This document shows positions 5,401 through 64,000 of a DNA stretch of 64,000 nt, piece after piece; position 1 is the stretch's first letter; each line of letters starts with the position of its first letter. The notes beneath the pieces were generated by a model. It did not search any database. It had not been told where the DNA came from and saw nothing but the letters and a program-made list of their open reading frames with translations. Source of the DNA: a virus (lineage: Duplodnaviria; Caudoviricetes); the IMG/VR virus record IMGVR_UViG_3300031784_000003; one strand, written 5' to 3'. Both the position numbers and the translations under genes were made by a program.

Positions 5401-8400
5401 CAGTAAATAGTAGTTATTATAATTTACAAAACCCAATAGGGGATGTATACAATTATTACTCAACGGAGATTTTTTGGGACAATTTTAATAAGGCAAGAAT
5501 AGTTAAGGAAGTTGTTCCAGGATCAAAATCATTATCTCTGCAACCATCATCTGTATTACAGGATCCTTCCCTTATGACACCATCAAATTGGAAGGTAGAT
5601 TCTATTGATGAATATGGTAGAGTTAGTTTTACACCAAAAACTTTTACTGATAATTTTATATTAGATTGGTATAGTTCTGACTTATTAAGTGATTTATATA
5701 AGACAGTTGCCACATATTATGGTTATAAGTTTAGTAAATTTACTTTTGATTATAATAATAATGTTTTAGTGCCTTTTGTGGGTGATAATTTATATAGTGA
5801 TAGACCTAATTCTGTAATCACTGCGGCAGTGGATTCTAATAGAGTAGCTTGTGGTGATGTAAATAGTGTTGCGGTAGTATTCGCTAGTGAAAAATGGAAA
5901 GGGTTTAATTTACCTAAATTAGATGATTGTAGTTGCACTATAGACTTCTCTTTTGATTACATGTTAAAATATGATGTGAATAACTTAACTAGATGTGCTA
6001 GTGGAATAAGTTGTTATCCTGCATTTATTTACGACAATACTATTGATAACATCAATTGCCTAAATTTTGTTGCATTTACTAATAACGCTAATACGTCAGT
6101 TAATTTACAAAGAAATTTTAATGATTCAACCTTTGTTACCGAAGAATATGTTTTATGGCAAAATTCTACTATATTAGAACCTAATGTAGAGTGTTGTAAG
6201 GCAGTTACAGGTAATGTGGTTGCGTTTAGAGAATGGGCTGAGTCTAATCAGACATGGGTTAAAAAAATAGAGGATACATACATTGCGATTTATCAACGAA
6301 ATACTTCTGTTTTAAATTCTTTAGATTTTGACTATACACCTATATATAATCAGGCAATTAAATATTTTGATTTAAAAAGTATATTTTATGATTCGTTACC
6401 TTATGCGGTAATTTCAGAAGGTGTAGGTGGTTTTGACGGTTCAGGAAAAGAATGTTTTACTCCTGATTTTACGGAAGAACCTTGTAATATACTATATGAG
6501 AATTATATAACTACACAAAATGTATGTTCATTAAATATGCCATTAGAATGTGGTTTATGGAGTAAATTATATGGTGATTATGAAAAATTATCTAGTGAGG
6601 TAACTAGATTAATTGAAGAGTATAATACTAACATTGCAGATTGTGGTGGTACCACTTACAATCAAGTTGTACCTTATTCCTATGAATCTGTTTCACCATC
6701 TGAAAGTAATTACGTTCCCCCAATGGCAGAAATGGTTGTGGTTGATAAAGAAAGGACTTTAAATAGTTTAGAAACTCAGAAAGTAGAACAAATTGCAATT
6801 TTAAGGGCGGATGAAGTAACTTTGACTTCTAATATAAATGATCTTAAAAATACTATTGGGGAAAAAGAATCTACCAACATTGTAATAAGAAAAGCATTAA
6901 CAAGTGTTAATTCGGATTTAGATTGTAGCATATATGAAGTTAGTATAAAAGAGATTGATAATTTTAATTATAAAGAATATTGTAACACTATTATTTATAA
7001 CGGAGGTATTAATGATGGATCTAAAAATGTAGATTATAATAATTGTGTTTCTACTAAAACTATTGAAAATAGTGAACAAAAATTAGTATATTCTGAGTTA
7101 TTAAATTCTTGTATTTTAAAAAACCAACTTAATAGTCAATTAGTAAATTCTAAATTTGAAAATAATCAAGTATTAACTACGACATTAGAAAATCAAATTC
7201 AACAATTAAATGTAAAAATTAATGAATTAACTACTAATGCTAATAGTGTTATCGCAGTAAATGAGTCTTACCAAAATTCTAAATTATTAGAAAATGATAC
7301 TCAAAATACTATTAACGTTGTTTCAGAAATATTGAACGTAAGTCCTCAAAGTATAACAGACAGTAGTGGTAATTTAGTTATTTCTGATTCACAAAAATTA
7401 AAATTAAATGTAGAATTAACTAAAAATGAGTCACAAATATCTGGATTAAATAGAGATGTTCAAAATTATTTTGATTCTTTAAATGAAAATATACAGAATC
7501 AAAAATATATAGAGTATGGTACTAATTTTATTCAAAACGATTTAAAGACTAATATTAATAATATTAATTTGGTTGATCCACCAATAACTCAACCAACTAC
7601 TCAAAGAATAGGTATATCTCCTACCACAGATAATAAAATCTCGAATATGGATTATAATCAATATACGGGAGAGTTTAACAATCTTACTTGGGTTAAACCT
7701 GATTATAACCCAATAACGGAAGAGTTTATTCCAGTTAGAACGGATTATAATCAATTTATTACTGAAGATTTAATTCCGACTAAACCTATTAATAATGGGT
7801 TTGACGCCTCTATAGGGGGAGAGTACAATAAAACTGAAGAAGTTGCTCAAGTAGTTAATGTTGGTACAGGTAATTTTTCAGATTGTTGTTTAGCATACTT
7901 AAAACTTAAAGAAAACAATACAATACAGGTTTTAAATGATATTTTACTTGATGTACAAGAAAGTATTAATTTTATTAAAACAAATGTGTATAATGCGTAT
8001 AATAGATGGAATGATACCTTAGAAAATAGTTATGAAAATTATATTGAAAGTAGTACAAATTATTTAAAATATATCGATGATTTAAAAATCAATTTTAAAT
8101 TATTTGTTGATAATAATAATATTGATGTGAATAATAGTATAGACACATCTTTAACTTATTTACCATACACTCAATCAATAAATCCTATATGGGAATTTAA
8201 TCCATCAGAAGGATATAGTGGTATTTTATTAGAAGGTGATGAACAAAGTTTGGCGTTAGTTGAAGAATCTATTTTTGATACGTTATCGTCTAAAAATATT
8301 AATTACAATTCTAATTTGTTTGAACCAGATTGGAAGACGTTTAATTTTACTATACCTGAATGTGTGTGTGACGATTTAAGAAGATTATATCCTAACAAAG

Positions 8401-40537: not shown

Positions 40538-43335
40538 AAAGAATATTAATTACTGAAAAACAATATAAAAATTTATTAAATTTAGTTAATGAACAATTTG
40601 TTAAATATAATAATCCTGAAGATGAAAAAGATCTTAGTCACGATATTGTAGATACTTTAACATATTTAACTGTTGTATTTAGAGAAAACAACATCAATAA
40701 AGATGTCTTTGTTGATAAAATAGAGGATGGTGTGGTTTATTTGGATCCGACTAAATATACTCAAGAAGAAAAAGACATAATTGAAAAAAGATTACAAACT
40801 TATGTGGATTACCAAAAAAATCCTAGAGATAAAGTTTTAACAAATGCTTTAGGATTCGATAGTGGATTTGATAGTGATTGGACAGGTGGGGATATTGCGG
40901 ATGTAGAAGATAATAGTGATGTTGCGGATGTAGAAGATAATAGTGATGTTGCGGATGTGGAAGATGACAGTGATGTTGCGGTTATTGAAGATGAAGCGGA
41001 AAAAATATATAAACAAATAGAGGCTTGTGATTTTGGAAGAAATTCTAAAGGTAATAAAAGAAAAGTTATATTACCACCTACAATGGATATTAGATTTTAT
41101 CAGGATTTACTTAAAAAGTTAGGTGCAAATTTTACTTGTCAAAAGATGTTATTCTTTTTTGCGTGGAGAGATGGGGAAAGTTCTAAATCAACATATAACC
41201 CTTTTGCGACAACATATAGAGATGAGAAAAACGAAGGTTGTTATTACAATTGTTTAAAAAGTGGTAAGGGATATAAACCTACTGGTTGTAGGACATGTCC
41301 TCCAGGTACAAATCCTGGTGTTAGGAATTATAAAACTTATAGTTCTGGATTAGATGCGACATATAAAACACTAACTAATGGATTGTATCAGAATGTAATT
41401 AAAAAATTAAAAAATGATAATATTACTGCGGTAGAAATTGCTTCAGAAAAGTCTGAGTTAAAGACTTGGGGAACAGGAGGATTAGTTCTGGATATACTTA
41501 AATATACTAATACTATTAGGGTTAATAGAATAGAAAAATATGGAGGAGGTTCGATAGTTGATGATGAGTGTGTTTTAACTACTGCAGAATACAACTTTTA
41601 TAAACAACATATAAAAAATAAAAGTGATGGTGACGCATTTAGAGGGTGGGTTAATTCAGATAGTAGTAGATTAAATTATGTGAATAGAAAATTATCTGAT
41701 TGTTCTTTATTTACTGGTTTAGAAAAGACAGGTGAACTTAATGACTATGTTGAAATCGCCTTCAAACATAAGGGTAAAGAATGGGTTAAATTAGGTAAAC
41801 CAGGTAAAGAAAGTGAAAATGTAGTAGTTGATAGTAAAAAAGATGAGGAAATAAGAAATAGAATTATAAAATATGCAGAAACTAAATTAGGGCAACCATA
41901 TATTTGGGGTAAAGAATTTGATGGTGTAGGTGGAGATTGTTCTGGTTTTATTGATAATGTTTTAAGAAATGTAAATGGTATTACCTCACCTTATGATGGT
42001 AGAGAAACGTCAGCAGTTTTAAAGAAATTAGTTTTAGGGAAAAATGTGGGTAAGAAATCTGGACTTAAAAGGGGTGACATCTTAGTGTTTAACCCTAGAG
42101 CTGGTGGAAGTATAGGTCATGTTGGGTTTGTCCATAACGTAAATAGTGATGGGACAGTAGATATGATACACTCCTCTTCATCAAAAGGGGTAATAATCCA
42201 AAAAGATATATTAAATAGTGGTATAGGTAAAAGGTATTATGGGGCACTACCAATCGTAAACGGTAGGTATGAGTCATCGAGTACTGGTGAAATTAGTAGT
42301 AACGTTAATGTTAATAATTCTAGGAAAGATGAAGATGATTGTCCTAACTATGATTGTTGGTCATATTTTGGTAAAGAAAGTTTTTGGAATGGTACAAGTA
42401 AAATAAATAATAAAACTGTACCTAAAATTACAATAGAAAAATCTAATAGTTTATTTAAAATAACTTATAAGGGTACATCATCAGGATTTTTACTTAAACA
42501 TAGTAAAGGTGGTAAAAATGATACCATTCATCAGTTGTTAAATGTTCTTACATTAGAATTGAATGATTATTTAAAAACCCGTTATTTAAAACCTGTTATT
42601 AAATCTATTAAAATGGATTTGGTTGGTAATAGTTTAACTGTTGAAGTCCCTTTAATTGATAGTGGTAATAAAAAATATATTATAAATAGGAGAGGTAGAT
42701 TAGGTGGTGGATCAATAGATGAAAGTGGGTTAGTTAAATATGAAGATATGGATGGGTATGAAGAGGTATACCATACTTCTGGCTCACTTAGAGAGAAATT
42801 TATAACAGTAATTGACACAAACGTTGGTTTTGGTAATAAAAATGAAGGAATAGAACAACCTAAAAAGGGAACTGATATCACTAAACCTAGTGATGCTAGA
42901 TTAACATCTCTACCACAAAGTAGTAGATGGGGTAGACCACATCATGGGTATGATATAGTGGGTCCTTATAGTGGTAAAAAATGTTTAATAGTTTGTAATA
43001 ATCCAGGAATAGTTACACATGCTGGTAGATGTGGAGGTTATGGTAACCTAGTTGAGATTGATCATGGTATGGGGAAATTTTCAGCATACGCACATCTTCA
43101 TAAAATATTTGTTACTGAAGGTCAACAAATAAATGTAGGTGATGTTATAGGTATTGAAGGAAATACTGGTGGTTCTATGGGTAGACATTTACATTTTGAA
43201 GAAAGGGTAAGAAGACCTAAAAATTTAAAGAATAGATGTGGAAATGGGTCACCATATAATGAAGCTTATGGTTACGATACCGTAAAACCATTAAGTAATT
43301 TAGATAACTACTTTTATTTTCAACAAGGTATATGA
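40534..43335 (+). CDS. Multidomain virion peptidoglycan hydrolase (lysozyme-like, NlpC/P60, M23)
   Basis: AWRDGES..YNPFAT; QPYIWG..DCSG..HVG; HHGYD..YGNLV..YAHL..GNTG..HLHFE. Confidence 0.8.
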   Translation: MKRILITEKQYKNLLNLVNEQFVKYNNPEDEKDLSHDIVDTLTYLTVVFRENNINKDVFVDKIEDGVVYLDPTKYTQEEKDIIEKRLQTYVDYQKNPRDKVLTNALGFDSGFDSDWTGGDIADVEDNSDVADVEDNSDVADVEDDSDVAVIEDEAEKIYKQIEACDFGRNSKGNKRKVILPPTMDIRFYQDLLKKLGANFTCQKMLFFFAWRDGESSKSTYNPFATTYRDEKNEGCYYNCLKSGKGYKPTGCRTCPPGTNPGVRNYKTYSSGLDATYKTLTNGLYQNVIKKLKNDNITAVEIASEKSELKTWGTGGLVLDILKYTNTIRVNRIEKYGGGSIVDDECVLTTAEYNFYKQHIKNKSDGDAFRGWVNSDSSRLNYVNRKLSDCSLFTGLEKTGELNDYVEIAFKHKGKEWVKLGKPGKESENVVVDSKKDEEIRNRIIKYAETKLGQPYIWGKEFDGVGGDCSGFIDNVLRNVNGITSPYDGRETSAVLKKLVLGKNVGKKSGLKRGDILVFNPRAGGSIGHVGFVHNVNSDGTVDMIHSSSSKGVIIQKDILNSGIGKRYYGALPIVNGRYESSSTGEISSNVNVNNSRKDEDDCPNYDCWSYFGKESFWNGTSKINNKTVPKITIEKSNSLFKITYKGTSSGFLLKHSKGGKNDTIHQLLNVLTLELNDYLKTRYLKPVIKSIKMDLVGNSLTVEVPLIDSGNKKYIINRRGRLGGGSIDESGLVKYEDMDGYEEVYHTSGSLREKFITVIDTNVGFGNKNEGIEQPKKGTDITKPSDARLTSLPQSSRWGRPHHGYDIVGPYSGKKCLIVCNNPGIVTHAGRCGGYGNLVEIDHGMGKFSAYAHLHKIFVTEGQQINVGDVIGIEGNTGGSMGRHLHFEERVRRPKNLKNRCGNGSPYNEAYGYDTVKPLSNLDNYFYFQQGI
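40891..40980 (+). repeat. 27-nt in-frame tandem repeat (about 3.3 copies)
   Basis: gatgttgcggatgtagaagataatagt units encoding DVADVEDNS. Confidence 0.9.
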
Positions 43336-45874: not shown

Positions 45875-45953
45875 AAAAAATAATTTTTTTTTAAAAAACA
45901 TTTGACTTTTTAGAAAATAGTATATAAATTTGTATTCAGAAATAAAAAAAGAT

Positions 45954-47369
45954 ATGGAAACACAGTTGACTAATATTGAGAAAGAGAACGTAACATTAAC
46001 TAAAAACGGTATGGTTACTAACCCAACAACACTTAATAAGTGTGTTGACTTATTCTTCTCTATTGGTTCAATGAGAGGTAAGTCAAAAGATAAATTAATT
46101 AAAATGTTTAATGAGGCATTTGAAGAAAATCCTTTGATTACGACAAAAATTCTTTTTTGGGTTAGAGATATTAGAGGTGGTGCGGGTGAAAGAAAAGTGT
46201 TCAGAGATATTATTGAATACTTGGTAACTAACTCACCAGAAACAGTTAGAAAAAATATTAATCTAATACCTGAGTTCGGAAGATGGGATGACATATTGAT
46301 TCTTTTGGGTACAGAATTAGAAGAAGATATGTTTTACCATATCAGAGCAGCGTTAATCAACCGTACCGATGGTTTATGTGCTAAATGGATGCCTAGAAAA
46401 GGTGAGTTGGCAAACAAACTTAGAAAATTGTTTAAGATGACACCTAAACAATATAGAAAAATGTTAGTTGAATTAACTAATGTTGTTGAAACTAAGATGT
46501 GTGATAAGGATTGGGAATCTATTGATTATTCTAAATTACCTTCTTTAGCGTCATCTAGATATCAAAAATCTTTTAAGAGAAACGATACTGTTAGATATGA
46601 GGATTATAAAAATGCGTTGGTTGATGGTACCGCTAAGGTAAATGCTGGGGCAGTATATCCATATGATATCATTAAATCTATGAGATATGGTGGTGACGAT
46701 GTTGTCAACAATAAACAATGGGAATCCCTACCAAATTTTATGGAAGGATCCACTGAAAGAATATTACCAGTGGTAGACGTTTCTGGATCTATGACTTGTT
46801 CAGCAGGAGGAAATCCAAACCTAACATGTATAGATGTGGCAATATCATTAGGTATGTATATATCTGAAAGAAGTGAAGGTAATTTTAAAGATGCGTTTAT
46901 CACATTCTCTGAGAATCCACAACTACAGTATTTAAAAGGTGATTTAAAACAAAGATTGAACCAGTTACTTAGTGCGGAGTGGGGTATGACTACTAATTTA
47001 GAAAAAGTATTTAAATTAATACTTACACAGGCTAAGAACAACAAAATATCTGAAGATATGATGCCGACTAAAATAATTATTTTATCGGATATGGAGTTCA
47101 ACGAAGCAACTCGTAAAGATAGTAGTTCACAATCTATGATTGAAGCTATGTATGAGGAGGCAGGGTATAAAAAACCTGATATCATCTACTGGAATTTAAA
47201 TGCGACTGGAGGTAACTTTCCTGTTGAGTTTGATGAAAACGGAACTGCGTTAGTTTCAGGATTTAGTCCGTCAATTCTTAAATCTTTATTAGGTGGTAAG
47301 AATATGACACCAGAATCCATATTGTTGGATACTGTGAATAGTGAAAGATATGGTGTTATAACCGTATAA
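45954..47369 (+). CDS. TROVE/Ro60-like protein (DUF2828-type helical domain plus vWA)
   Basis: RDIRGGAGER, FGRWDD, CAKWMPR; vWA MIDAS DVSGS, FITFS, ILSDMEF. Confidence 0.75.
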   Translation: METQLTNIEKENVTLTKNGMVTNPTTLNKCVDLFFSIGSMRGKSKDKLIKMFNEAFEENPLITTKILFWVRDIRGGAGERKVFRDIIEYLVTNSPETVRKNINLIPEFGRWDDILILLGTELEEDMFYHIRAALINRTDGLCAKWMPRKGELANKLRKLFKMTPKQYRKMLVELTNVVETKMCDKDWESIDYSKLPSLASSRYQKSFKRNDTVRYEDYKNALVDGTAKVNAGAVYPYDIIKSMRYGGDDVVNNKQWESLPNFMEGSTERILPVVDVSGSMTCSAGGNPNLTCIDVAISLGMYISERSEGNFKDAFITFSENPQLQYLKGDLKQRLNQLLSAEWGMTTNLEKVFKLILTQAKNNKISEDMMPTKIIILSDMEFNEATRKDSSSQSMIEAMYEEAGYKKPDIIYWNLNATGGNFPVEFDENGTALVSGFSPSILKSLLGGKNMTPESILLDTVNSERYGVITV

Positions 47370-47391
47370 AAAGTTCTTTGAAAAAAAATAT

Positions 47392-47548
47392 TTGTGATAG
47401 TTAAGGAATAATTGCAGCAAAATTTAAAACTAAAATTTATAGCTACATACAAAGGGCTTGATAACCCTCCTAACTATAAGGGTGTAAACCACGAAAGTGG
47501 GGGACCACTCACGGTTAGGTAAAGTGTCAAACTATTCCGATATCACAA
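47392..47548 (+). ncRNA. Y-RNA-like structured RNA A
   Basis: Closing helices TTGTGATA/TATCACAA and GGAATA/TATTCC followed by TTGCAGCAA; internal hairpins CCTAAC/GTTAGG and CCAC-gaaa-GTGG. Confidence 0.55.
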
Positions 47549-47556
47549 TCATATTA

Positions 47557-47878
47557 GGTGTAATGGATTGGAGGTTAACGAACCTCCTTTAAGTCCGATA
47601 AACGAATGGTTTCTGCAACTCTTATTCTAGGAACTATGTAGATCAGAAGTTTTACCACTTTACTTCAAAAAAAATATAAAGTGGCGACCATAGGTGAGTT
47701 TAAACGTGGGAAATTCCCACACTTTAGGTCGTAAAACATACCTCTTGTTTATCTCAAGTTAAAAAGGTAGTTGGATTTGTCTCAATTAAAAAAAAGACAC
47801 CCGAACCAGAATGGGCCAATAATATTGGGGTGGGTACTCTACCACCTAAAATAAAAACAGGACCACCATTCCGACACC
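47557..47878 (+). ncRNA. Large Y-RNA-like structured RNA B
   Basis: GGTGT/ACACC and GAATGGT/ACCATTC closing helices, TTCTGCAAC motif, at least 7 internal helices, no ORF. Confidence 0.55.
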
Positions 47879-47886
47879 GACATTTA

Positions 47887-47913
47887 AAAGGGAAGAGAAA
47901 TCTTCCCTTTTTT
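47887..47913 (+). terminator. Intrinsic terminator
   Basis: AAAAGGGAAGA-gaaa-TCTTCCCTTTTTT. Confidence 0.85.
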
Positions 47914-49166: not shown

Positions 49167-50165
49167 ATGAATAAAGATTATTACCAAATTTTAGGAGTAG
49201 ATAGAAGTGCGAATGAATCCGACATAAAAAAAGCATATAGAAAATTATCTAAAGAGTATCATCCAGATCTAAACCCAAATAATAAAGAGGCAGAAGAAAA
49301 GTTTAAAAGTATTGCCGAAGCGTATTCTGTGTTGTCAGACAAAGAAAAAAAAATAAATTATGATAGATTTGGGACTGCGGATGGTAGAACAAATCCTTTT
49401 GGTGGTATGAATATGGATGACATATTTTCTTCTTTTTATGGTAATATGAAATATGGAAGAAATATGAAAGGTGGAGACATTAGAATTAATGTAAAACTTA
49501 CATTAGAAGAAATGTATAATGGAGTCCAAAAGAAAATAATATATAGAAAATTATCTAAATGTGAACCTTGTATTGGTAGAGGTGGAGAAACAATTAGTTG
49601 CGTTACTTGTAATGGTATTGGTGTGGTAAATAATATTCAAAACACACCATTCGGTAAAATACAAACTACTACACATTGTCCTAACTGTTCTGGTAGTGGG
49701 CAAATCATTACTAAAAAATGTGGTATTTGTTCAGGTAATGGAGTTAGTCAACAAGAAATTCCTTTTGAGTTTGATTTACCTAGAGGAGTTATGGATGGTG
49801 AAATGTTAAGAGTTTTTGGTATGGGTAATTCAGTTAGAAATGGGGTGGAAGGAGATTTATTAATTAATATTATAGAAATACCACATGAAAAATTTAAGAG
49901 GGTAGGTTTAGATATACACCAAAAGATTAATTTAACGTATAAAGATTTAGTTTTAGGTAATGATTCTGTTGAGATAGATACTATAGACAATAAAATAAGG
50001 TTTAAAATACATCCTGGGACTAAGATTGGAACAATGTTAAGGGTACCTAATAAAGGGTTCATTAGAGAAAATTTAAACGGTGATATGTTATTGGAGATAT
50101 GGTTAGATATACCAACAAATATCGATGAAGAAGAAAAAGAAAAAATTAATTTATTAAAAATTTGA
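49167..50165 (+). CDS. dnaJ: DnaJ chaperone
   Basis: J-domain HPD, four CxxCxGxG motifs, C-terminal substrate-binding domain. Confidence 0.93.
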
Positions 50166-50647: not shown

Positions 50648-50837
50648 TAGTAATGGTATAAATAAAATTGCCACCGATCCAACCCTATCTAAACAAGAAA
50701 AGAATTGGGAGTTGATGAGTGTTTTAGGAATGAAATGGTCAGAAACAGTTTCTCTTACTGATGAAGACAGAGATTTTTTATTAACTAAGGTGGAGAAGAT
50801 TAAAATTCATATTGAAAAAAGTAGAAAATTACAATGA
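50625..50837 (+). CDS. Hypothetical protein
   Basis: 70-aa ORF overlapping its neighbours. Confidence 0.5.
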   Translation: MKKMQLDNSNGINKIATDPTLSKQEKNWELMSVLGMKWSETVSLTDEDRDFLLTKVEKIKIHIEKSRKLQ

Positions 50838-51745
50838 TAAGTTATATTGGTGGCAAGGCTAGGATTTCTAAATGGATAGTACCATTTATATCCGAAGATA
50901 TAGAAACATACGTAGAACCTTTTAGTGGTATGTTTTGGGTATTTTTTAGAATGGATTTAAAAAAATATCCTAATTTGAAGACTGTGGTTTATAACGACTT
51001 CAACGGGTTAAACGCAAATTTATTTTCTTGTTGTAAGGAGTATGATAAATTATGGGATGAAATAATTAAATATCCTTGTCAACAATTAGGGGTGACAGAT
51101 ACACCTCAGATTTATTCAGAAATGTTTAAACAATACCAGAATGAGTTATTCAGCTCGTCTGGTATTGTTATTACGGAAGAAAATAAATATGATATTGCAG
51201 CAAAATATGTGTACGTATTAACTCAAATATTTTCTGGTTCTAAACCTGAGACATCTAATTATATGGATTATAAAGGTAAATACAGATGTAAAGTATTAAT
51301 ATTTTTAGATAAACTTAAAGATAAAAAATATAGAGAACATTTTGATAAAATCACATTTATAGAAAATTTAGATTTTAGTGATGTTATACAGAAATATGAT
51401 TCCGAAAAAACTTATTTTTATGTCGATCCACCGTATTGGAAAACAGAAAATTACTATTCCAATCATGACTTTGATAGAAACGATCACGAAAGATTGGCAA
51501 TCGTATTAAAAAACATTAAAGGTAGATTTTCTTTAAGTTATTATGATTTTCCATTACTTAAAGAATGGTTTCCTAAAACAGAATATGTTTGGGAAATGAA
51601 AGAGTTTGCTAAAGCAGCAGCCGCTAAAAGTGGTGTAAAACAAAATATGGGTGAAGAATTACTCATTATGAATTATGGTGAGAACAAATACGTATTACCA
51701 TCTGAAGGGACTCAGTTAGATTTATTTAATCATACATTTTTATAG
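50834..51745 (+). CDS. Dam-like (D12 class) N6-adenine DNA methyltransferase
   Basis: SYIGGK, YVEPFSG, YNDFN, YVDPPY. Confidence 0.88.
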   Translation: MISYIGGKARISKWIVPFISEDIETYVEPFSGMFWVFFRMDLKKYPNLKTVVYNDFNGLNANLFSCCKEYDKLWDEIIKYPCQQLGVTDTPQIYSEMFKQYQNELFSSSGIVITEENKYDIAAKYVYVLTQIFSGSKPETSNYMDYKGKYRCKVLIFLDKLKDKKYREHFDKITFIENLDFSDVIQKYDSEKTYFYVDPPYWKTENYYSNHDFDRNDHERLAIVLKNIKGRFSLSYYDFPLLKEWFPKTEYVWEMKEFAKAAAAKSGVKQNMGEELLIMNYGENKYVLPSEGTQLDLFNHTFL

Positions 51746-51747
51746 AC

Positions 51748-52638
51748 ATGGGAAGAATACCTAAGAAAAGAAAAATTGAACAATTAGCATTGTTTAGTGC
51801 AGAAACTATGGAGGAAATAACAATATTTAAAGGGGAAGAAACTATAGATGATGTAGTTTTGATAGACGTAGTAGAATCCAAAGAGGTTGGGTTAGTAACC
51901 AATCAAATTTATTGTGGGGATACTGTTGAAACTATGAAAAAAATTAAAGACAAAAGTATTAATTTAATTTTAACTTCTCCACCATATTTGGCATCGATAA
52001 GAAAAGATAATCATAAATATCCAGGTGCTAAAGACCTAATTAAAGATAACCAACCAGTAAAAGAATATATTAGTTGGTTAATAGAAGTGTTTAAACAATA
52101 TGAAAGAATTTTGACAGATGAGGGTGTAATTGTATTTAATTATAGTTATACCACATTTAATCCATCTTTACCGTATATGTTAATTAATGAGGTGTTTGAA
52201 AATACATCATTAGAGATATATGATACGGCATCTTGGAAAAAGAAATCTTGTGTACCTTTAAGTGGGCATCCAAATAGAATGACTAGAATTGTTGAAATGG
52301 TTTATATTTTTGCGAAAACACCTAACTTTAGTGCAAATAAAATAGTATCTTCAGTATCTAAAACTGGACAGAAGTATTTCAATACGTATTATAATTTTAT
52401 TGAGGCAAAAAATAATGATGGTAAAGTGGAAGGACATGAGGCAACATTTTCTACAGAGTTTGCAAATTACTTTATAGATTTATACTCAAAACCGAATGAC
52501 ATTGTATTAGATAACTTTTCTGGTACGGGTACAACACCCTACGCCGCATCCAAAATGGGTAGACAGTATATTGGGATAGATTTAGTCGAAGATTACTGTG
52601 ACTACGCTAAGGAAAGACTTTCTAAACTATATAAATAA
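51748..52638 (+). CDS. N4-cytosine/N6-adenine DNA methyltransferase (beta class)
   Basis: LTSPPY precedes VLDNFSGTGTT. Confidence 0.88.
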   Translation: MGRIPKKRKIEQLALFSAETMEEITIFKGEETIDDVVLIDVVESKEVGLVTNQIYCGDTVETMKKIKDKSINLILTSPPYLASIRKDNHKYPGAKDLIKDNQPVKEYISWLIEVFKQYERILTDEGVIVFNYSYTTFNPSLPYMLINEVFENTSLEIYDTASWKKKSCVPLSGHPNRMTRIVEMVYIFAKTPNFSANKIVSSVSKTGQKYFNTYYNFIEAKNNDGKVEGHEATFSTEFANYFIDLYSKPNDIVLDNFSGTGTTPYAASKMGRQYIGIDLVEDYCDYAKERLSKLYK

Positions 52639-54401: not shown

Positions 54402-54802
54402 GGGGATGGTTTTGGATTTGACAATCAAAGGTTGAGTTCGGAATGATGCAAGCAGGGTTAGATGGAAACCCTTAAACACCTATCAAAACATAAATGCAAA
54501 CGCATACAACGTAGAGGATATCATGAGTATCCCAACTTCTATTACTCGCTCAGCGGTAGTTGAAGAGATTGAATTAATGGAATTAGTTTAATCGGTGGGT
54601 CACACTTACCTAGAAACAGAAAGGTGTAAAAAATAGAGTTGATCGTCAATACTCTATAAACAATTGACGAAAACAGGGTTGTTGGATAACCATGTTATAA
54701 ATAAAACCAAATATTTTGTTTATTTAGAAAAATAAACTAAGCTTGTGAATGATTTTCTTATGGCGATTTGATTGGACGAGGGTTCGACTCCCTCCATCTC
54801 CA
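54402..54802 (+). ncRNA. ssrA: tmRNA
   Basis: 5' GGGGATG..GGATTTGAC; 3' T-arm GAGGG-TTCGACT-CCCTC and CATCTCCA with G3:U; resume codon GCA at 54496, tag ORF ends 54591. Confidence 0.92.
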
Positions 54803-54872
54803 CTAGTGTTGTCGGTTTCTTTGTTCCCTAAAAACAAAGTGGTGGAAGTTGATAGTAATCCTATCGGCCCTT

Positions 54873-54903
54873 TAACCCCTCAGAGTGAGGGGTTATTTTT
54901 TTT
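54873..54903 (+). terminator. Intrinsic terminator
   Basis: TAACCCCTCA-gag-TGAGGGGTTA followed by a T tract. Confidence 0.85.
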
Positions 54904-54944
54904 ATAATTTTAATATTTTGGGAAGGTACAAATTTGAAAATAAA

Positions 54945-55439
54945 ATGGATAAGGTATTAGTTTTAAATAATGACTATACTCCATTAAACTTGACTACACT
55001 TAAAAGGGGGTTTAAATTAGTATATAAAGGTAAGGCAGAAATAATTTATTATGATGAGTCAAATCCTATTATATCTAGTTTTAAAAATTTTAATAGACCT
55101 TCTGTAATTAGATTACACAGATTTATTTATACACCTTATAAAAAAGTACCTTTAAGTAGATATAATGTTTTTAGGAGGGATGATCATAAATGTGTATATT
55201 GTGGGACAAATAAAAATTTAACTATTGATCACGTAATACCTAAATCTAGGGGTGGTGATAATACTTGGAAAAATTTAGTTACGTGTTGTGGTGTATGTAA
55301 CCTTAAAAAAGATGATAGAACACCAGAAGAGGCTGGTATGTTGTTATTAAGAAAACCATATACTCCTACATATATTCAGTTTATTGAAAGAATGAATGGT
55401 GTAATTAAAGAAGAGTGGAAACAATTTTTAATGGTATGA
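54945..55439 (+). CDS. HNH endonuclease (McrA-like)
   Basis: VLVLNNDY start at 54945; CVYCG..TIDHVIPKSRGG..W.NLVTCC..CN.KK. Confidence 0.9.
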   Translation: MDKVLVLNNDYTPLNLTTLKRGFKLVYKGKAEIIYYDESNPIISSFKNFNRPSVIRLHRFIYTPYKKVPLSRYNVFRRDDHKCVYCGTNKNLTIDHVIPKSRGGDNTWKNLVTCCGVCNLKKDDRTPEEAGMLLLRKPYTPTYIQFIERMNGVIKEEWKQFLMV

Positions 55440-58612: not shown

Positions 58613-58693
58613 AAAATATTAAAAGGAAGATTTCAGCAAAAATAACTACGAACTGCAAATTTGGATATGTAAAAACATTTTCCTGAATATTTT
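58613..58693 (+). ncRNA. Minimal Y-RNA-like element with Cys anticodon-loop mimic
   Basis: AAAATATT/AATATTTT and AGGAAGAT/ATTTTCCT stems, TTCAGCAA motif, CGAA-CTGCAAA-TTTG hairpin. Confidence 0.5.
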
Positions 58694-59766: not shown

Positions 59767-59852
59767 GGAAGAGTGGCAGAGTTGGTTTATTGCACCTGTC
59801 TTGAAAATAGGAGTACTTAACGGTACCGTAGGTTCGAATCCTACCTCTTCCT
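59767..59852 (+). tRNA. tRNA-Ser(TGA)
   Basis: CCTGT-CTTGAAA-ATAGG; long variable arm. Confidence 0.92.
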
Positions 59853-59855
59853 CAA

Positions 59856-59999
59856 AATGATAATAAAGGGATTGTTTCTGCAACAATTATTTTAGCCTTT
59901 TAAGCTCGGGGTCGTAGGTTCGAATCCTACCTGAGGACATTTATTGTCTTCAGTAGCTTAGTGGTAGAGCACGTATACAACCCAATCCTGATTATCATT
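59856..59999 (+). ncRNA. YrlA-like Y RNA (circularly permuted tRNA mimic)
   Basis: Closing stems AATGATAAT/ATTATCATT and GGGATTG/CAATCCT; T-arm precedes loop-closed acceptor stem CTGAGGAC/GTCTTCAG, then D-arm. Confidence 0.8.
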
Positions 60000-60004
60000 T
60001 ATTA

Positions 60005-60080
60005 GGTCCATTGGTGTAATGGTTTAACATACATCACTGTCTATGATGTGCTGAGAGTTCGATTCTCTCATGGACCGCCA
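60005..60080 (+). tRNA. tRNA-Asp(GTC)
   Basis: Cloverleaf with CCA. Confidence 0.93.
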
Positions 60081-62213: not shown

Positions 62214-62906
62214 ATGAAGAAAAAAATTACTTTTATTAGCGATACCCACACCAAACACGAAAAACTAAATAGTTTTTTACCTGGTGGAGACATCCTTATT
62301 TGTGGGGGTGATATTAGTAGTAGAGGTTATGTCTCAGAAATAGAAAACTTTTTAAAATGGTTTGATAATATAGATAATTACGATTTTAAAATTTTTATCG
62401 CAGGAAATCACGATTTTGGGTTTCAAGATGATTATGAAAAAATTATGGGGTTATTAACTGGTTACAAAAATATCGATTATCTTCAGGATGAAAAAATGGA
62501 ACTTTGGGACGATGAAGATATGCAGTTGATTGTATATGGATCCCCTTGGCAACCTGAATTTCATAATTGGGCATTTAATTTACCTAGAGGTGAGAAAATA
62601 AAAGAAAAATGGGATATGATTCCACACAATACAGATATTTTAATTACTCACGGCCCACCATACGGTAAATTAGACTATGTAAATTATGACAACATCAATG
62701 TTGGTTGCGAAGAACTATTAAAAGTTGTGGAGGATATAAAACCTAAAATACATGTGTTTGGACATATTCATGAAGGGTTTGGTTATGTTTTTGACGGTAA
62801 CACACATTATATTAATGCGGCAGTATTAAATGGTAGATATGAATTTAGAAATAAACCAGTAAATGTTGAGTGGGACATGATAACTAACGAAATACAATTT
62901 TTATGA
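62214..62906 (+). CDS. Calcineurin-like metallophosphoesterase (MPPED-like)
   Basis: ISDTH, GGDIS, AGNHD, ITHGPP, FGHIHE. Confidence 0.9.
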   Translation: MKKKITFISDTHTKHEKLNSFLPGGDILICGGDISSRGYVSEIENFLKWFDNIDNYDFKIFIAGNHDFGFQDDYEKIMGLLTGYKNIDYLQDEKMELWDDEDMQLIVYGSPWQPEFHNWAFNLPRGEKIKEKWDMIPHNTDILITHGPPYGKLDYVNYDNINVGCEELLKVVEDIKPKIHVFGHIHEGFGYVFDGNTHYINAAVLNGRYEFRNKPVNVEWDMITNEIQFL

Positions 62907-63211
62907 AATCCATAAGACAAATTTTTAAAACTAACGATTCACTTATGGAAGAACCTGAGGTTTCAGAATTAATTGATTATTGTAAAGATTTAGAAGATGA
63001 AGTTGTAGAATGTATCCAAAAAAATGATCAGACAATAGTTTTAAAACAACTAATTTCAGAAATTAGTAAAAGTTGTTATGAATTAATTGAGGAAGATAAA
63101 AAGTCTGAACGATGGGAACATGATTTTGAAAAGATTGACTTTAAAAAATCTATAATTAATTTAAGAGAATATATAATAAAATATTGTTTAGATAATAAAA
63201 TAAAATTATGA
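62903..63211 (+). CDS. Hypothetical protein
   Basis: 102-aa ORF overlapping both neighbours by 4 nt. Confidence 0.55.
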   Translation: MKSIRQIFKTNDSLMEEPEVSELIDYCKDLEDEVVECIQKNDQTIVLKQLISEISKSCYELIEEDKKSERWEHDFEKIDFKKSIINLREYIIKYCLDNKIKL

Positions 63212-63645
63212 TAAAGTATAGAATATATTTGGATGACATAAGAACTCCAGTGAGTCCTAATAACGAATGGGTTGAAGGTGTTGAAGAATGGACAGTTGTT
63301 CGTTCATATGATGAATTCGTTCAAAAAGTAAATTCGGTAGGGTTAGAAAATATTGAAATAATTTCGTTGGATCACGATTTGGGTGATACTGCGATGAACG
63401 AGTGGTTATATGGTGTAACTAAAAACTACTCAATTAATTATGATAATATTACCGAAAAGACTGGTTACGACTGTGCTAAATGGTTAGTTAATGAGTGGAT
63501 GGATGGTAAACCAGTTGTTAGGGTAGTAACACATTCGGCAAATGCAATCGGTAGTGCCAACATTATGGGTTATGTAAATAATTATTTACACTTAAATCGT
63601 TTACCGCAAAATTGTGTAAGAGTACAAATAGAACATACAGTTTAA
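63208..63645 (+). CDS. Cyclic-phosphate-processing receiver-like domain protein
   Basis: IYLDDIRTP, ISLDHDLG, TGYDCAKWL, THSAN. Confidence 0.78.
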   Translation: MIKYRIYLDDIRTPVSPNNEWVEGVEEWTVVRSYDEFVQKVNSVGLENIEIISLDHDLGDTAMNEWLYGVTKNYSINYDNITEKTGYDCAKWLVNEWMDGKPVVRVVTHSANAIGSANIMGYVNNYLHLNRLPQNCVRVQIEHTV

Positions 63646-63646
63646 T

Positions 63647-64000
63647 ATGAAAGTAATATTTTTAGATCACGATGGTGTGATATGTTTATCTGATCAGTGG
63701 GGTGGTCGTTATAAGAAAAAAGGATTTAACTCTAATCCTGAAACCCCTTTAGATATTAGAATGGATAATTTTGACACTAAGGCAGTTAAAGTTCTTAATA
63801 AAATTATTGAGGAAACTGGTTGTGAGTTGGTTATTAGTTCAGATTGGAAGAGATGGGGAACGTTAGAACAAATGAAGGAAATGTATGTGACTAGAGGTAT
63901 TAAACCACCGATAGATCTAACACCAATGATACAAGAATGTACGGTACATAGTGATACATTTATATGGTCACCTATGTGGGAGTTGGAACAAACCAGATCA
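63647..64000 (+). CDS. HAD-superfamily phosphatase (RNA-repair SAK-type), 3'-truncated
   Basis: MKVIFLDHDGVI, LNKIIEETGCELVISSDWK; runs off the window end. Confidence 0.78.
   Translation, partial: MKVIFLDHDGVICLSDQWGGRYKKKGFNSNPETPLDIRMDNFDTKAVKVLNKIIEETGCELVISSDWKRWGTLEQMKEMYVTRGIKPPIDLTPMIQECTVHSDTFIWSPMWELEQTRS

What the first reader, a model, noticed from the sequence alone, without database searches (positions are those of the whole stretch)
59856..59999. YrlA-like permuted tRNA mimic displaying a tRNA-Lys(UUU) anticodon loop
Seen in sequence: the tRNA halves are in reversed order (T-arm GTAGG-TTCGAAT-CCTAC, acceptor stem closed by a loop, then D-arm GCTT-AGTGGTA-GAGC) inside a long closing stem. 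That is the known architecture of bacterial YrlA Y RNAs. In addition, AGC-CTTTTAA-GCT (loop 59897-59903) reproduces the anticodon loop of the phage tRNA-Lys. Established knowledge: tRNA-Lys(UUU) is the PrrC target. Inference: this is a non-chargeable decoy for an anticodon nuclease, or a Ro60-bound adaptor for RNA repair or decay.
Basis: partly seen in the sequence, partly recalled or inferred. Interest (0 to 1): 0.75.

Follow-up and report, generated by a model that had tools for sequence, protein, structure and literature searches.

The report
Phage Y-RNA-like permuted tRNA mimic
This is a real, conserved small-RNA gene in a large freshwater phage: a complete tRNA cloverleaf with rotated ends, mounted on a conserved "handle", and most likely a partner RNA of the phage's Ro60-like ring protein, in a widespread phage version of the Ro60/Y-RNA particle that Rfam does not list.

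Summary
Bases 59856-59999 fill the spacer between tRNA-Ser and tRNA-Asp and fold as: outer stem, AAA/G internal loop, 7-bp helix P1, UUUCUGCAA motif, a 3-bp hairpin with loop CUUUUAA, T arm, loop-closed acceptor stem, D arm.

It is a whole cloverleaf whose ends leave the anticodon stem between nt 28 and 29.

Rfam YrlA matches only the tRNA-like core (30.9 bits, cut-off 69), and the YrlA 5' motif GNCGAA is absent.

A pattern search recovered over 100 distinct relatives:
- Pairing is 96.7% with strong covariation.
- The 7-nt loops look like anticodon loops (U33 in 85/98, R37 in 89/98).
- A DUF2828 gene lies in 31 of 118 RNA-selected loci, always on the same strand, at a median of 418 nt.

The window's DUF2828 protein (45930-47369) is not Pfam TROVE. 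Its model matches Ro60 structures first.

Members occur in Felix O1-type phages (Bas63, BPS15Q2), Cronobacter phage S13 and mycobacteriophage Whirlwind. A preprint reports the Bas63 homologue (gp130) as a counter-defence gene.

The Ro60-partner reading is supported. The PrrC-decoy reading is untested.

This scan has already found the family on other DNA.

The parts
59856..59864 (+). Outer closing stem, 5' strand (AATGATAAT). It pairs with 59991-59999.
   Evidence: Sequence and MFE fold. Identical in relative L157, so there is no covariation information.
59865..59867 (+). AAA side of the asymmetric internal loop, opposite the single G at 59990.
   Evidence: The same AAA/G loop occurs in the paralogue at 58613-58693. 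The G after P1 is invariant in alignment A1.
59868..59874 (+). Handle helix P1, 5' strand (GGGATTG). It pairs with 59983-59989.
   Evidence: All 7 pairs form in all 52 parsed relatives, with very different sequences. The helix is 100% paired and all 7 pairs covary.
59875..59883 (+). Handle motif UUUCUGCAA (family core CWGCAA).
   Evidence: 14 window matches to TTBCWGCAA against 1.9 expected. The CAGCA core is also kept in members not selected by the pattern: L008, Whirlwind, BPS15Q2, Bas63.
59894..59906 (+). Lower anticodon arm: AGC / CUUUUAA / GCU, with anticodon-like UUU.
   Evidence: The loop is identical to that of the phage's tRNA-Lys. It is conserved in L157, L176 and L101, and in L101 the stem has compensatory changes. 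Family-wide, U33 occurs in 85 of 98 loops and R37 in 89 of 98.
59907..59908 (+). CG (tRNA positions 42-43). It pairs with CG 59972-73 (positions 27-28) to form the top of the anticodon stem.
   Evidence: This helix is 92% paired and both pairs covary. The Rfam YrlA alignment pairs the same bases.
59909..59930 (+). Variable loop GGGUC and the T arm.
   Evidence: Rfam YrlA core alignment and model R1. C48 can pair with G15, read from the sequence.
59931..59953 (+). Acceptor stem (7 bp, one G-U) closed by the 9-nt loop CAUUUAUUG. No CCA is encoded.
   Evidence: 96% paired and all 7 pairs covary. L157 has a fully different, still complementary stem.
59954..59973 (+). U8-A9, the D arm, A26, C27-G28.
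59974..59982 (+). 3' joining strand UAUACAACC (family consensus: UA followed by an A-rich run).
   Evidence: Alignment A1.
59983..59999 (+). P1 3' strand CAATCCT, the invariant unpaired G 59990, and the outer stem 3' strand.
45930..47369 (+). Ro60-like protein (Pfam DUF2828 + DUF7788; phrog_850 'RNA-binding protein'), the inferred partner.
   Evidence: The MIDAS motif DxSGS is invariant. The AlphaFold model has pLDDT 78. The top 12 Foldseek PDB hits are all Ro60/TROVE proteins, E from 2e-10 to 2e-5.
58613..58693 (+). Paralogous mini handle RNA. It has the same outer stem, AAA/G loop, P1 and UUUCAGCAA, but carries only a hairpin whose loop CUGCAAA equals that of the phage's tRNA-Cys.
47386..47760 (+). 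Two further handle RNAs (about 47386-47556 and 47596-47760) directly downstream of the Ro60-like gene. Their bodies are not tRNA-like.
   Evidence: Motifs at 47412 and 47610.

Best explanation
The element is a functional small RNA of the Y-RNA type.

How it is made (inferred): it is transcribed inside the second tRNA operon. Ordinary tRNA processing of its neighbours, tRNA-Ser and tRNA-Asp, releases it.

How it folds:
- Shown by covariation: helix P1, the split anticodon stem, the T arm, the closed acceptor stem and, weakly, the D stem (3 of its 4 pairs never vary).
- Seen only in the fold of this copy and its in-phage paralogue: the outer stem and the AAA/G internal loop.
- Conserved as sequence: the CWGCAA motif and the unpaired G after P1.
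- These pieces make a 'handle' that branches out of the anticodon stem (between nt 28 and 29) of an otherwise complete tRNA cloverleaf with a tRNA-Lys(UUU)-type anticodon loop.

What it does (inferred from gene linkage, fold homology and analogy to Rsr-YrlA): the handle is the docking site for the phage's Ro60-like DUF2828 ring protein. The tRNA-shaped part then acts as bait or adaptor, bringing that protein to factors that recognise tRNA-Lys: nucleases, repair enzymes or modification enzymes. The particle probably helps protect the phage's translation apparatus from host defence.
For: A real, constrained RNA:
- 96.7% of cells pair and covariation is 0.779, against 0.17 or less in slid controls.
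- P1 is fully paired in all 52 parsed relatives with unrelated sequences.
- Model R1 scores the element 105.7 bits, against 42 or less for tandem tRNAs.
- In relatives 81% and 73% identical, the acceptor and T stems changed compensatorily, while the CUUUUAA loop is unchanged.

Linkage to the protein:
- 31 of 118 loci retrieved by RNA pattern alone carry a DUF2828 homologue (24-50% identical). It is on the same strand in all 31, at a median of 418 nt.
- Members lie 0.1-1.3 kb downstream of the gene in Whirlwind, BPS15Q2, Bas63 and S13.
- Two handle RNAs lie directly after the gene in this window.

The protein is Ro60-like: Foldseek's top 12 hits are all Ro60/TROVE, the profile search also lists Ro60 first, though weakly, and the MIDAS motif is invariant.

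Precedent: Rsr-YrlA (PMC4201824) and phage phiLo Ro60-Yrl (PMC12135203).

Function hints:
- Bas63 gp130, the same family, is reported as a counter to the Ppl defence system, and the authors guessed that nearby 'tRNAs' are Y RNAs (PMC11482910).
- RNA-repair-type domains (cREC_REC, HAD_SAK_2, metallophosphoesterase) lie 2-4 kb downstream.

Expression hint: a contig from a freshwater RNA library is identical over 59837-59981.
Against: - No binding, expression ends or phenotype are shown for this RNA. The RNA-library contig could derive from DNA, and contigs cannot show RNA ends.
- This copy lies 12.5 kb from the protein gene, beyond the 4 kb used to define YrlA.
- The handle motif (CWGCAA) differs from the Ro60-contacting motifs of Y RNAs (GGUCCGA, GNCGAA, CGAA), so Ro60-style docking is an analogy only.
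- Some phages with the gene showed no R1-type RNA within 3-4 kb: KVP40, Pseudomonas phage Milchi and Listeria phage LP-064.
- The retrieval pattern fixed the motif, the T loop and TAGC. Their conservation can therefore be judged only from the fewer members not selected by the pattern.
Confidence: 0.65

Rival explanations
1. Dedicated anticodon-nuclease decoy. The displayed tRNA-Lys(UUU) loop soaks up or inhibits PrrC-, RloC- or PARIS-type nucleases, with or without the Ro60-like protein.
For: - The loop is identical to the tRNA-Lys loop and is conserved while the stems change.
- Family loops keep U33 and R37 and carry many different anticodons.
- In loci with at least 10 canonical tRNAs, 16 of 24 elements duplicate an anticodon already supplied by a canonical tRNA. 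About 40% would be expected by chance.
- That tRNA-Lys(UUU) is a PrrC and PARIS target is established knowledge.
Against: - No nuclease or cleavage data exist.
- The only reported phenotype for the protein family is against Ppl, an ATPase-PHP system not known to cut tRNA.
- The anticodon stem is only 3 bp below a three-way junction.
- The commonest family 'anticodon' is GUU (19 of 76), not Lys.
- Handle RNAs without any tRNA part exist.
Confidence: 0.15
2. A true permuted tRNA-Lys gene. The handle acts like an intron or permutation junction. It is excised and the ends are ligated (for example by RtcB), then the acceptor loop is opened by RNase P and 3' processing, giving a working tRNA, as for the permuted tRNA genes of Cyanidioschyzon merolae.
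For: - The cloverleaf is complete, with the nucleotides for tertiary pairs in place.
- NCCA follows the acceptor 3' strand in 21 of 114 family members, against 1.6% expected.
- Unpermuted versions have the handle inserted in a CCA-ending tRNA body (S13).
- RtcB lies near the gene in Listeria phage LP-064.
Against: - This copy has no CCA.
- Its discriminator is C, while the phage's tRNA-Lys has A73.
- A canonical tRNA-Lys(UUU) is present 330 nt away.
- No enzyme that would excise the handle is known, and no such cleavage is known.
- Handle RNAs with no tRNA body exist.
Confidence: 0.07
3. A non-functional remnant of a tandem tRNA duplication, or a chance arrangement in a tRNA array.
For: - It lies in a tRNA cluster.
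- Its T arm is identical to those of tRNA-Ser and tRNA-Val.
- Tandem tRNAs score up to 42 bits with R1.
Against: - Compensatory changes occur in every helix across more than 100 distinct relatives.
- The position is syntenic in relatives 81% identical.
- Members occur in phages of Proteobacteria and Actinobacteria.
Confidence: 0.03

Closest known systems
YrlA (Rfam RF02553) with bacterial and mycobacteriophage Ro60/Rsr (Chen et al. 2014, PMC4201824)
   Same: - The 5' and 3' ends pair in a long stem.
- The tRNA-like domain has the order (V hairpin)-T arm-closed acceptor-D arm.
- The nucleotides for tRNA tertiary pairs are present.
- It is encoded on the same strand as a Ro60-type ring protein.
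- There are several sister RNAs per genome, some without the tRNA part, as with YrlB.
   Different: - Only the core matches the model (30.9 bits against 69).
- There is no GNCGAAN0-1G motif. CWGCAA follows a 7-bp helix instead.
- The hairpin before the T arm is a proper 7-nt anticodon-type loop.
- The partner is DUF2828, not Pfam TROVE.
- This copy sits 12.5 kb from the gene, inside a tRNA operon.
Thermus phage phiLo Ro60 with Yrl1/Yrl2 (PMC12135203; PDB 9KOP, 9L5Y)
   Same: It is a phage-encoded Ro60 ring, and it gives the best structural match to the window's protein (E 2e-10). Its partner RNAs are encoded nearby and have a stem-bulge-stem design.
   Different: phiLo has a TROVE-annotated protein and RNAs with a CGAA motif. 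No permuted full cloverleaf is described there.
Bas63 gp130 (PhageMaP preprint, PMC11482910)
   Same: It is the same protein family (about 40% identical by tblastn; bas63_0130), and the same RNA family lies 1 kb downstream (65.9 bits). It is reported as a counter-defence gene, and the authors guessed that nearby tRNA genes could be Y RNAs.
   Different: The RNAs were not identified there. The Bas63 member is currently overlaid by a small minus-strand ORF annotation. The defence it counters (Ppl) is not a known tRNA nuclease.
Dictyostelium Class I RNAs (Kjellin et al. 2021, PMC7919456)
   Same: The handle plan is the same: a short terminal stem, then CCUUACAGCAA directly after the 5' strand, a variable body, the 3' strand, then UG(U). 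I read this from the published sequences in the paper's supplement.
   Different: - They are eukaryotic RNAs of 42-65 nt without tRNA parts.
- Their known binder is an RRM protein, Rnp1A.
- The window motif matches 7 of the 11 positions.
Circularly permuted tRNA genes of Cyanidioschyzon merolae (recalled from memory, not checked in a paper here)
   Same: The 3' part of the tRNA is encoded before the 5' part, and the acceptor ends are joined by a short loop.
   Different: Those are matured by the eukaryotic/archaeal splicing endonuclease at a bulge-helix-bulge motif. No such machinery or motif is present here, and the junction lies at nt 28/29 with a conserved handle.

Membership tests
YrlA (Rfam RF02553) | Score at or above the curated gathering threshold of the covariance model | tested here: not met
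   30.9 bits against 69, with only model positions 24-84 of 114 matched. The Whirlwind homologue behaves the same way, at 38.3 bits.
YrlA (Rfam RF02553) | tRNA-like domain in the order T arm, closed 'acceptor' stem-loop, D arm, with the nucleotides for tRNA tertiary pairs | tested here: met
   alignment. U8, A14, G15/C48, G18G19 and the T loop UUCGAAU are read from the sequence.
YrlA (Rfam RF02553) | GNCGAAN0-1G motif near the 5' end (proposed Rsr contact; Chen et al. 2014) | tested here: not met
   There is no CGAA between 59854 and 59918. UUUCUGCAA is there instead.
YrlA (Rfam RF02553) | Encoded within about 4 kb of, and on the same strand as, a TROVE-domain Ro60 gene | tested here: not met
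   It is on the same strand but 12.5 kb away, and the protein has no Pfam TROVE hit at E <= 0.01. Sister handle RNAs do lie within 400 nt of the gene.
YrlA (Rfam RF02553) | Bound by Ro60/Rsr in vivo | not testable with these tools
   This needs immunoprecipitation or EMSA.
   (105.7 bits; note that the element is in the seed alignment).
   Gene at 45930-47369 (+). Family-wide linkage is 31 of 118 loci, with 31 of 31 on the same strand.
Functional tRNA | Contiguous cloverleaf with free acceptor ends, recognised by tRNA finders | tested here: not met
   ARAGORN calls none here. Rfam tRNA scores 15.3 bits against a threshold of 29. The acceptor stem is closed by a loop, there is no CCA, and the discriminator is C.
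Ro60/TROVE proteins (the partner gene) | HEAT-repeat ring plus a vWA domain with a MIDAS motif | tested here: met
   Full-length Foldseek matches to 9KOP, 2I91, 2NVO, 1YVR and 9NEN, with TM about 0.5-0.57. DxSGS is invariant. The Pfam TROVE profile itself is not matched.
Dictyostelium Class I RNAs | Short terminal stem, the 11-nt motif CCUUACAGCAA after its 5' strand, and a CUGU 3' end | tested here: inconclusive
   The architecture is the same. The motif matches at 7 of 11 positions and the 3' end reads CCUGA. The comparison was made by eye with published sequences, and no statistical homology test was available.

The most novel reading that the evidence does not exclude
The Ro60-like ring and its handle RNAs form an anticodon-addressed anti-defence particle. 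Each RNA displays a genuine anticodon arm: Lys-UUU here, Cys-GCA in the mini RNA at 58613, and Asn, Thr, Phe and others elsewhere. That arm selects which tRNA-targeting nuclease, or which damaged tRNA species, the particle engages. Phages would then carry a programmable set of tRNA baits alongside their replacement tRNAs.
Probability: 0.15. Interest if true: 0.85.

Novelty: new variant of a known kind. Interest (0 to 1): 0.62.

Why it matters
Ro60/Y-RNA particles are known from animals, some bacteria and a few phages, but the role of the tRNA-like part of bacterial Y RNAs is still open. This work adds several things.

- **A second, much more widespread phage branch.** The DUF2828 gene is found in 711 of 50,697 phage records.
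- **Fuller tRNA mimics.** The RNAs keep an anticodon arm, and they sit in the tRNA operons of well-studied phages (Felix O1 type, Bas63, S13, cluster L mycobacteriophages), where they are unannotated or mis-annotated.
- **A way to test function.** One protein homologue is already reported as a counter-defence gene, so the function of a Y-RNA tRNA mimic becomes directly testable in E. coli or Salmonella phage genetics.
- **Practical annotation value.** Odd 'tRNA-OTHER' calls, over-long tRNAs and tiny ORFs in phage tRNA arrays may be these RNAs.

Tried and rejected
- **Close relatives in the phage collection.** Megablast of 24 kb found none. blastn of the element hit only tRNA-Ser genes.
- **Whole genome of the window.** None is held.
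- **The search for related loci with the single protein.** It found no viral contig.
- **Neighbouring phosphoesterase as a route to syntenic relatives.** This cost one homology search and four contig look-ups. Relatives carry that gene in a different, tRNA-free context, so it gave nothing.
- **First DNA pattern (T loop plus D arm).** It gave mostly tandem tRNAs and only four permuted elements.
- **Rfam in E-value mode.** On the mini element and on the region after the protein gene it gave no meaningful family, and no Class I RNA family.
- **Paper searches.** Searches for DUF2828, permuted tRNA with phage, Ro-like, and the motif letters found no description of this RNA family. Aspegren et al. 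2004 is not held.
- **Laying RNA runs.** All four were contigs of metatranscriptomes. One exact contig covers 59837-59981, but strand, ends, abundance and true RNA origin cannot be told. No 28-29 joined form was seen, which proves nothing.
- **Origin as a recent copy of the phage's tRNA-Lys.** Rejected: the re-circularised element is 76% identical to Lys, 75% to Asn and 74% to Val.
- **Strict handle scan of the window.** It recovers only 58634 and 59878 outside coding regions. The two RNAs after the gene have looser handles.

Full report
**Setting**

The window is a large, AT-rich phage genome piece with 22 tRNA genes and a tmRNA. It has no near relative among deposited phages. The flagged bases 59856-59999 are essentially the whole spacer between tRNA-Ser(UGA), 59767-59853, and tRNA-Asp, 60005-60080. 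No promoter-like or terminator-like site lies between these tRNAs. The element would therefore be made as part of the tRNA operon and freed by normal tRNA end processing. That last step is inference.

**Observation**

The MFE fold reproduces the two-tier closing stem, the T arm, the loop-closed acceptor stem and the D arm. It gives -40.8 kcal/mol, z = -3.3, and no shuffle folds as well. The loop CUUUUAA at 59897-59903 is identical to the anticodon loop of the phage's tRNA-Lys(UUU).

- The CG after A26 (59972-73) pairs with the CG before the variable loop (59907-08), as positions 27-28 with 42-43.
- The AGC/GCU hairpin supplies positions 29-31 and 39-41.
- The RNA is therefore a complete cloverleaf, circularly permuted, with its ends leaving the anticodon stem between nt 28 and 29.
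- There the ends continue into a joining region with UUUCUGCAA, a 7-bp helix (P1), an AAA/G internal loop and an outer stem.

**Known families**

Rfam at gathering thresholds finds nothing here. In E-value mode, YrlA (RF02553) matches 59907-59973 at 30.9 bits (cut-off 69, E = 6.5e-5). Only model positions 24-84 align, which is the tRNA-like core. The YrlA hallmark GNCGAAN0-1G (Chen et al. 2014) is absent. The topology is YrlA-like, but membership fails on three tested criteria.

**Relatives**

Three sister RNAs in the window carry the same handle:
- 58613-58693, which has only a hairpin whose loop equals that of tRNA-Cys.
- About 47386-47556 and 47596-47760, directly after the protein gene.

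Cronobacter phage S13 has, just after its homologous gene, one permuted element. It also has two 113-121-nt 'tRNAs' in which the same module is inserted, in rotated form, into a CCA-ending tRNA body.

A degenerate pattern (motif, T loop, TAGC) retrieved 108 metagenomic and 44 viral stretches. Results from these:
- 52 parsed elements all have a perfectly paired 7-bp P1 with unrelated sequences.
- On a MAFFT alignment of 38 elements (A1), the proposed structure is 96.7% paired. All P1, acceptor and anticodon-stem pairs change on both sides. The covariation score is 0.779, against 0.17 or less in slid registers.
- A covariance model (R1) scores the window element 105.7 bits and tandem tRNAs 42 or less.
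- R1 found 167 matches of 55 bits or more, 114 of them distinct.
- The nearest relatives (L157 and L176, 81% identical, at the same position after tRNA-Ser) have a wholly different but complementary acceptor stem and the same CUUUUAA loop. L101 (73% identical) keeps the loop with a compensated stem.

Caveat: the pattern fixed the motif, the T loop and TAGC. However, members found only by R1 keep CAGCA(A). These are tandem neighbours, L008, Whirlwind, BPS15Q2 and Bas63.

**The anticodon arm**

Of the 114 distinct elements, 98 have a 7-nt loop. Among these, U33 is present in 85, R37 in 89 and both in 76, far above what base composition gives. The 'anticodons' are diverse: GUU 19, GAA 6, UUU 6, UGU 5, GUA 5, UGG 5 and others.

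In loci holding at least 10 canonical tRNAs, 16 of 24 elements repeat an anticodon that a canonical tRNA in the same locus already supplies. Roughly 40% would be expected by chance. These loci are not phylogenetically independent.

NCCA directly follows the acceptor 3' strand in 21 of 114 members, but not in this copy, whose discriminator is C. The anticodon-loop likeness is therefore a selected, family-wide property and not a coincidence. It does not by itself show what reads the loop.

**The protein**

ORF 45930-47369 is DUF2828+DUF7788 in Pfam and phrog_850 'RNA-binding protein' in PHROGs. It is not TROVE.
- An AlphaFold model from an 18-sequence alignment (pLDDT 78) has Ro60/TROVE structures as all of its 12 best PDB matches. 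They are full-length matches with E from 2e-10 to 2e-5.
- A sequence profile also lists Ro60 first, though weakly.
- The MIDAS motif is invariant.
- Homologues occur in 711 phage records: Felix O1-like, T4-like, Listeria, Staphylococcus, Campylobacter and Mycobacterium phages.

**Linkage**

Among 118 loci chosen only by the RNA, 31 contain a DUF2828 homologue in the few kb held. All 31 are on the RNA's strand, at a median distance of 418 nt. In cultured phages, R1 finds members at these positions:
- 100 nt after the gene in Whirlwind (71.8 bits).
- About 1 kb after it in BPS15Q2 and Bas63 (65.9 bits each).
- About 750 nt after it in S13.

KVP40, Milchi and LP-064 showed no R1-type RNA within 3-4 kb. 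R1 cannot see handle-only or unpermuted forms.

**Function**

Published work supplies three relevant points:
- Precedents for Ro60-Y RNA particles in bacteria and phages.
- A report that Bas63 gp130 counters the Ppl defence system, with the authors' guess that nearby tRNA genes are Y RNAs. I confirmed that gp130 is the DUF2828 homologue and located the RNA.
- RNA-repair-type domains 2-4 kb downstream in this window.

A freshwater metatranscriptome contig is identical over 59837-59981. This is a weak hint of expression.

I conclude that the RNA is most likely a partner RNA of the Ro60-like protein, with a tRNA-Lys-shaped bait module. The specific anticodon-nuclease-decoy idea remains an open sub-hypothesis, and a true permuted-tRNA maturation pathway is unlikely but not excluded.

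**Relation to earlier notes of this scan**

Look-ups show that the scan has reported this RNA family beside DUF2828 genes on many other genomes. They also gave the lead to Dictyostelium Class I RNAs. I checked that lead only so far as reading the published sequences. These share the plan of terminal stem, CCUUACAGCAA, variable body, stem, then UG.

Noticed in passing
window 58613-58693: A mini handle RNA between tRNA-Tyr and tRNA-Trp. It has the same outer stem, AAA/G loop, P1 and UUUCAGCAA as the target. Its only body is a hairpin whose 7-nt loop CUGCAAA equals the anticodon loop of the phage's tRNA-Cys.
   Followed up: partly
window 47386-47556 and 47596-47760: Two longer handle RNAs (motifs at 47412 and 47610) directly downstream of the Ro60-like gene. 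Their bodies are structured but not tRNA-like. A terminator-like hairpin lies at about 47888-47912.
   Followed up: partly
window 62214-64000: A run of RNA-repair-type genes: a calcineurin-like metallophosphoesterase, a DUF7893 protein, a cyclic-phosphate-processing receiver domain (cREC_REC) and a HAD_SAK_2 'Swiss Army Knife RNA repair' domain. No RNA ligase was seen in the window part examined.
   Followed up: partly
L001 5868-6110 (Cronobacter phage S13, NC_028773.1 about 132702-132944): Two features annotated as tRNA-Ser (121 nt) and tRNA-OTHER (113 nt). They are CCA-ending tRNA bodies whose anticodon region carries the handle module in rotated form (A-rich strand, hairpin, AUUCAGCA). A permuted member follows at about L001 6118-6278.
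   Followed up: partly
L184 5617-5750 (Escherichia phage Bas63 / JohannRWettstein, MZ501086.1 about 82777-82910): A family member (65.9 bits) lies where the record annotates a small minus-strand hypothetical ORF (bas63_0137, 5588-5740; bas63_0138 lies just beyond at 5752-5862). The ORF is probably a mis-annotation of an RNA gene.
   Followed up: partly
L182 4549-4684 (Mycobacterium phage Whirlwind, NC_022052.1 about 42176-42311): An unannotated permuted tRNA-like RNA (71.8 bits) in the 380-nt gap after gene 55, the 'RNA-binding protein'. Rfam YrlA again matches only its core (38.3 bits).
   Followed up: partly
L181 5852-7063 (Listeria phage LP-064): An RtcB-like RNA ligase gene lies 1.3 kb downstream of the DUF2828 gene, among tRNA genes. 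This echoes the bacterial rsr-yrlBA-rtcBA arrangement.
   Followed up: no
PMC7919456 supplement, compared with window 59868-59990: Dictyostelium Class I RNAs share the handle plan: terminal stem, CCUUACAGCAA, variable body, stem, UG(U). Whether this reflects common descent, and whether a DUF2828 protein binds them, is open.
   Followed up: partly
family loci, e.g. L008, L084, L113, L065, L108: Elements with a GUU (Asn-type) loop are the commonest. In 5 of the 6 such loci with at least 7 canonical tRNAs, no canonical tRNA-Asn was in the DNA held, unlike most other anticodon types. The loci are partial, so absence is not shown.
   Followed up: no
window 54402-55439: A phage tmRNA gene (104 bits) is followed at once by an HNH endonuclease ORF. 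A DnaJ homologue lies at 49167-50165 and two DNA methyltransferases at 50834-52638.
   Followed up: no
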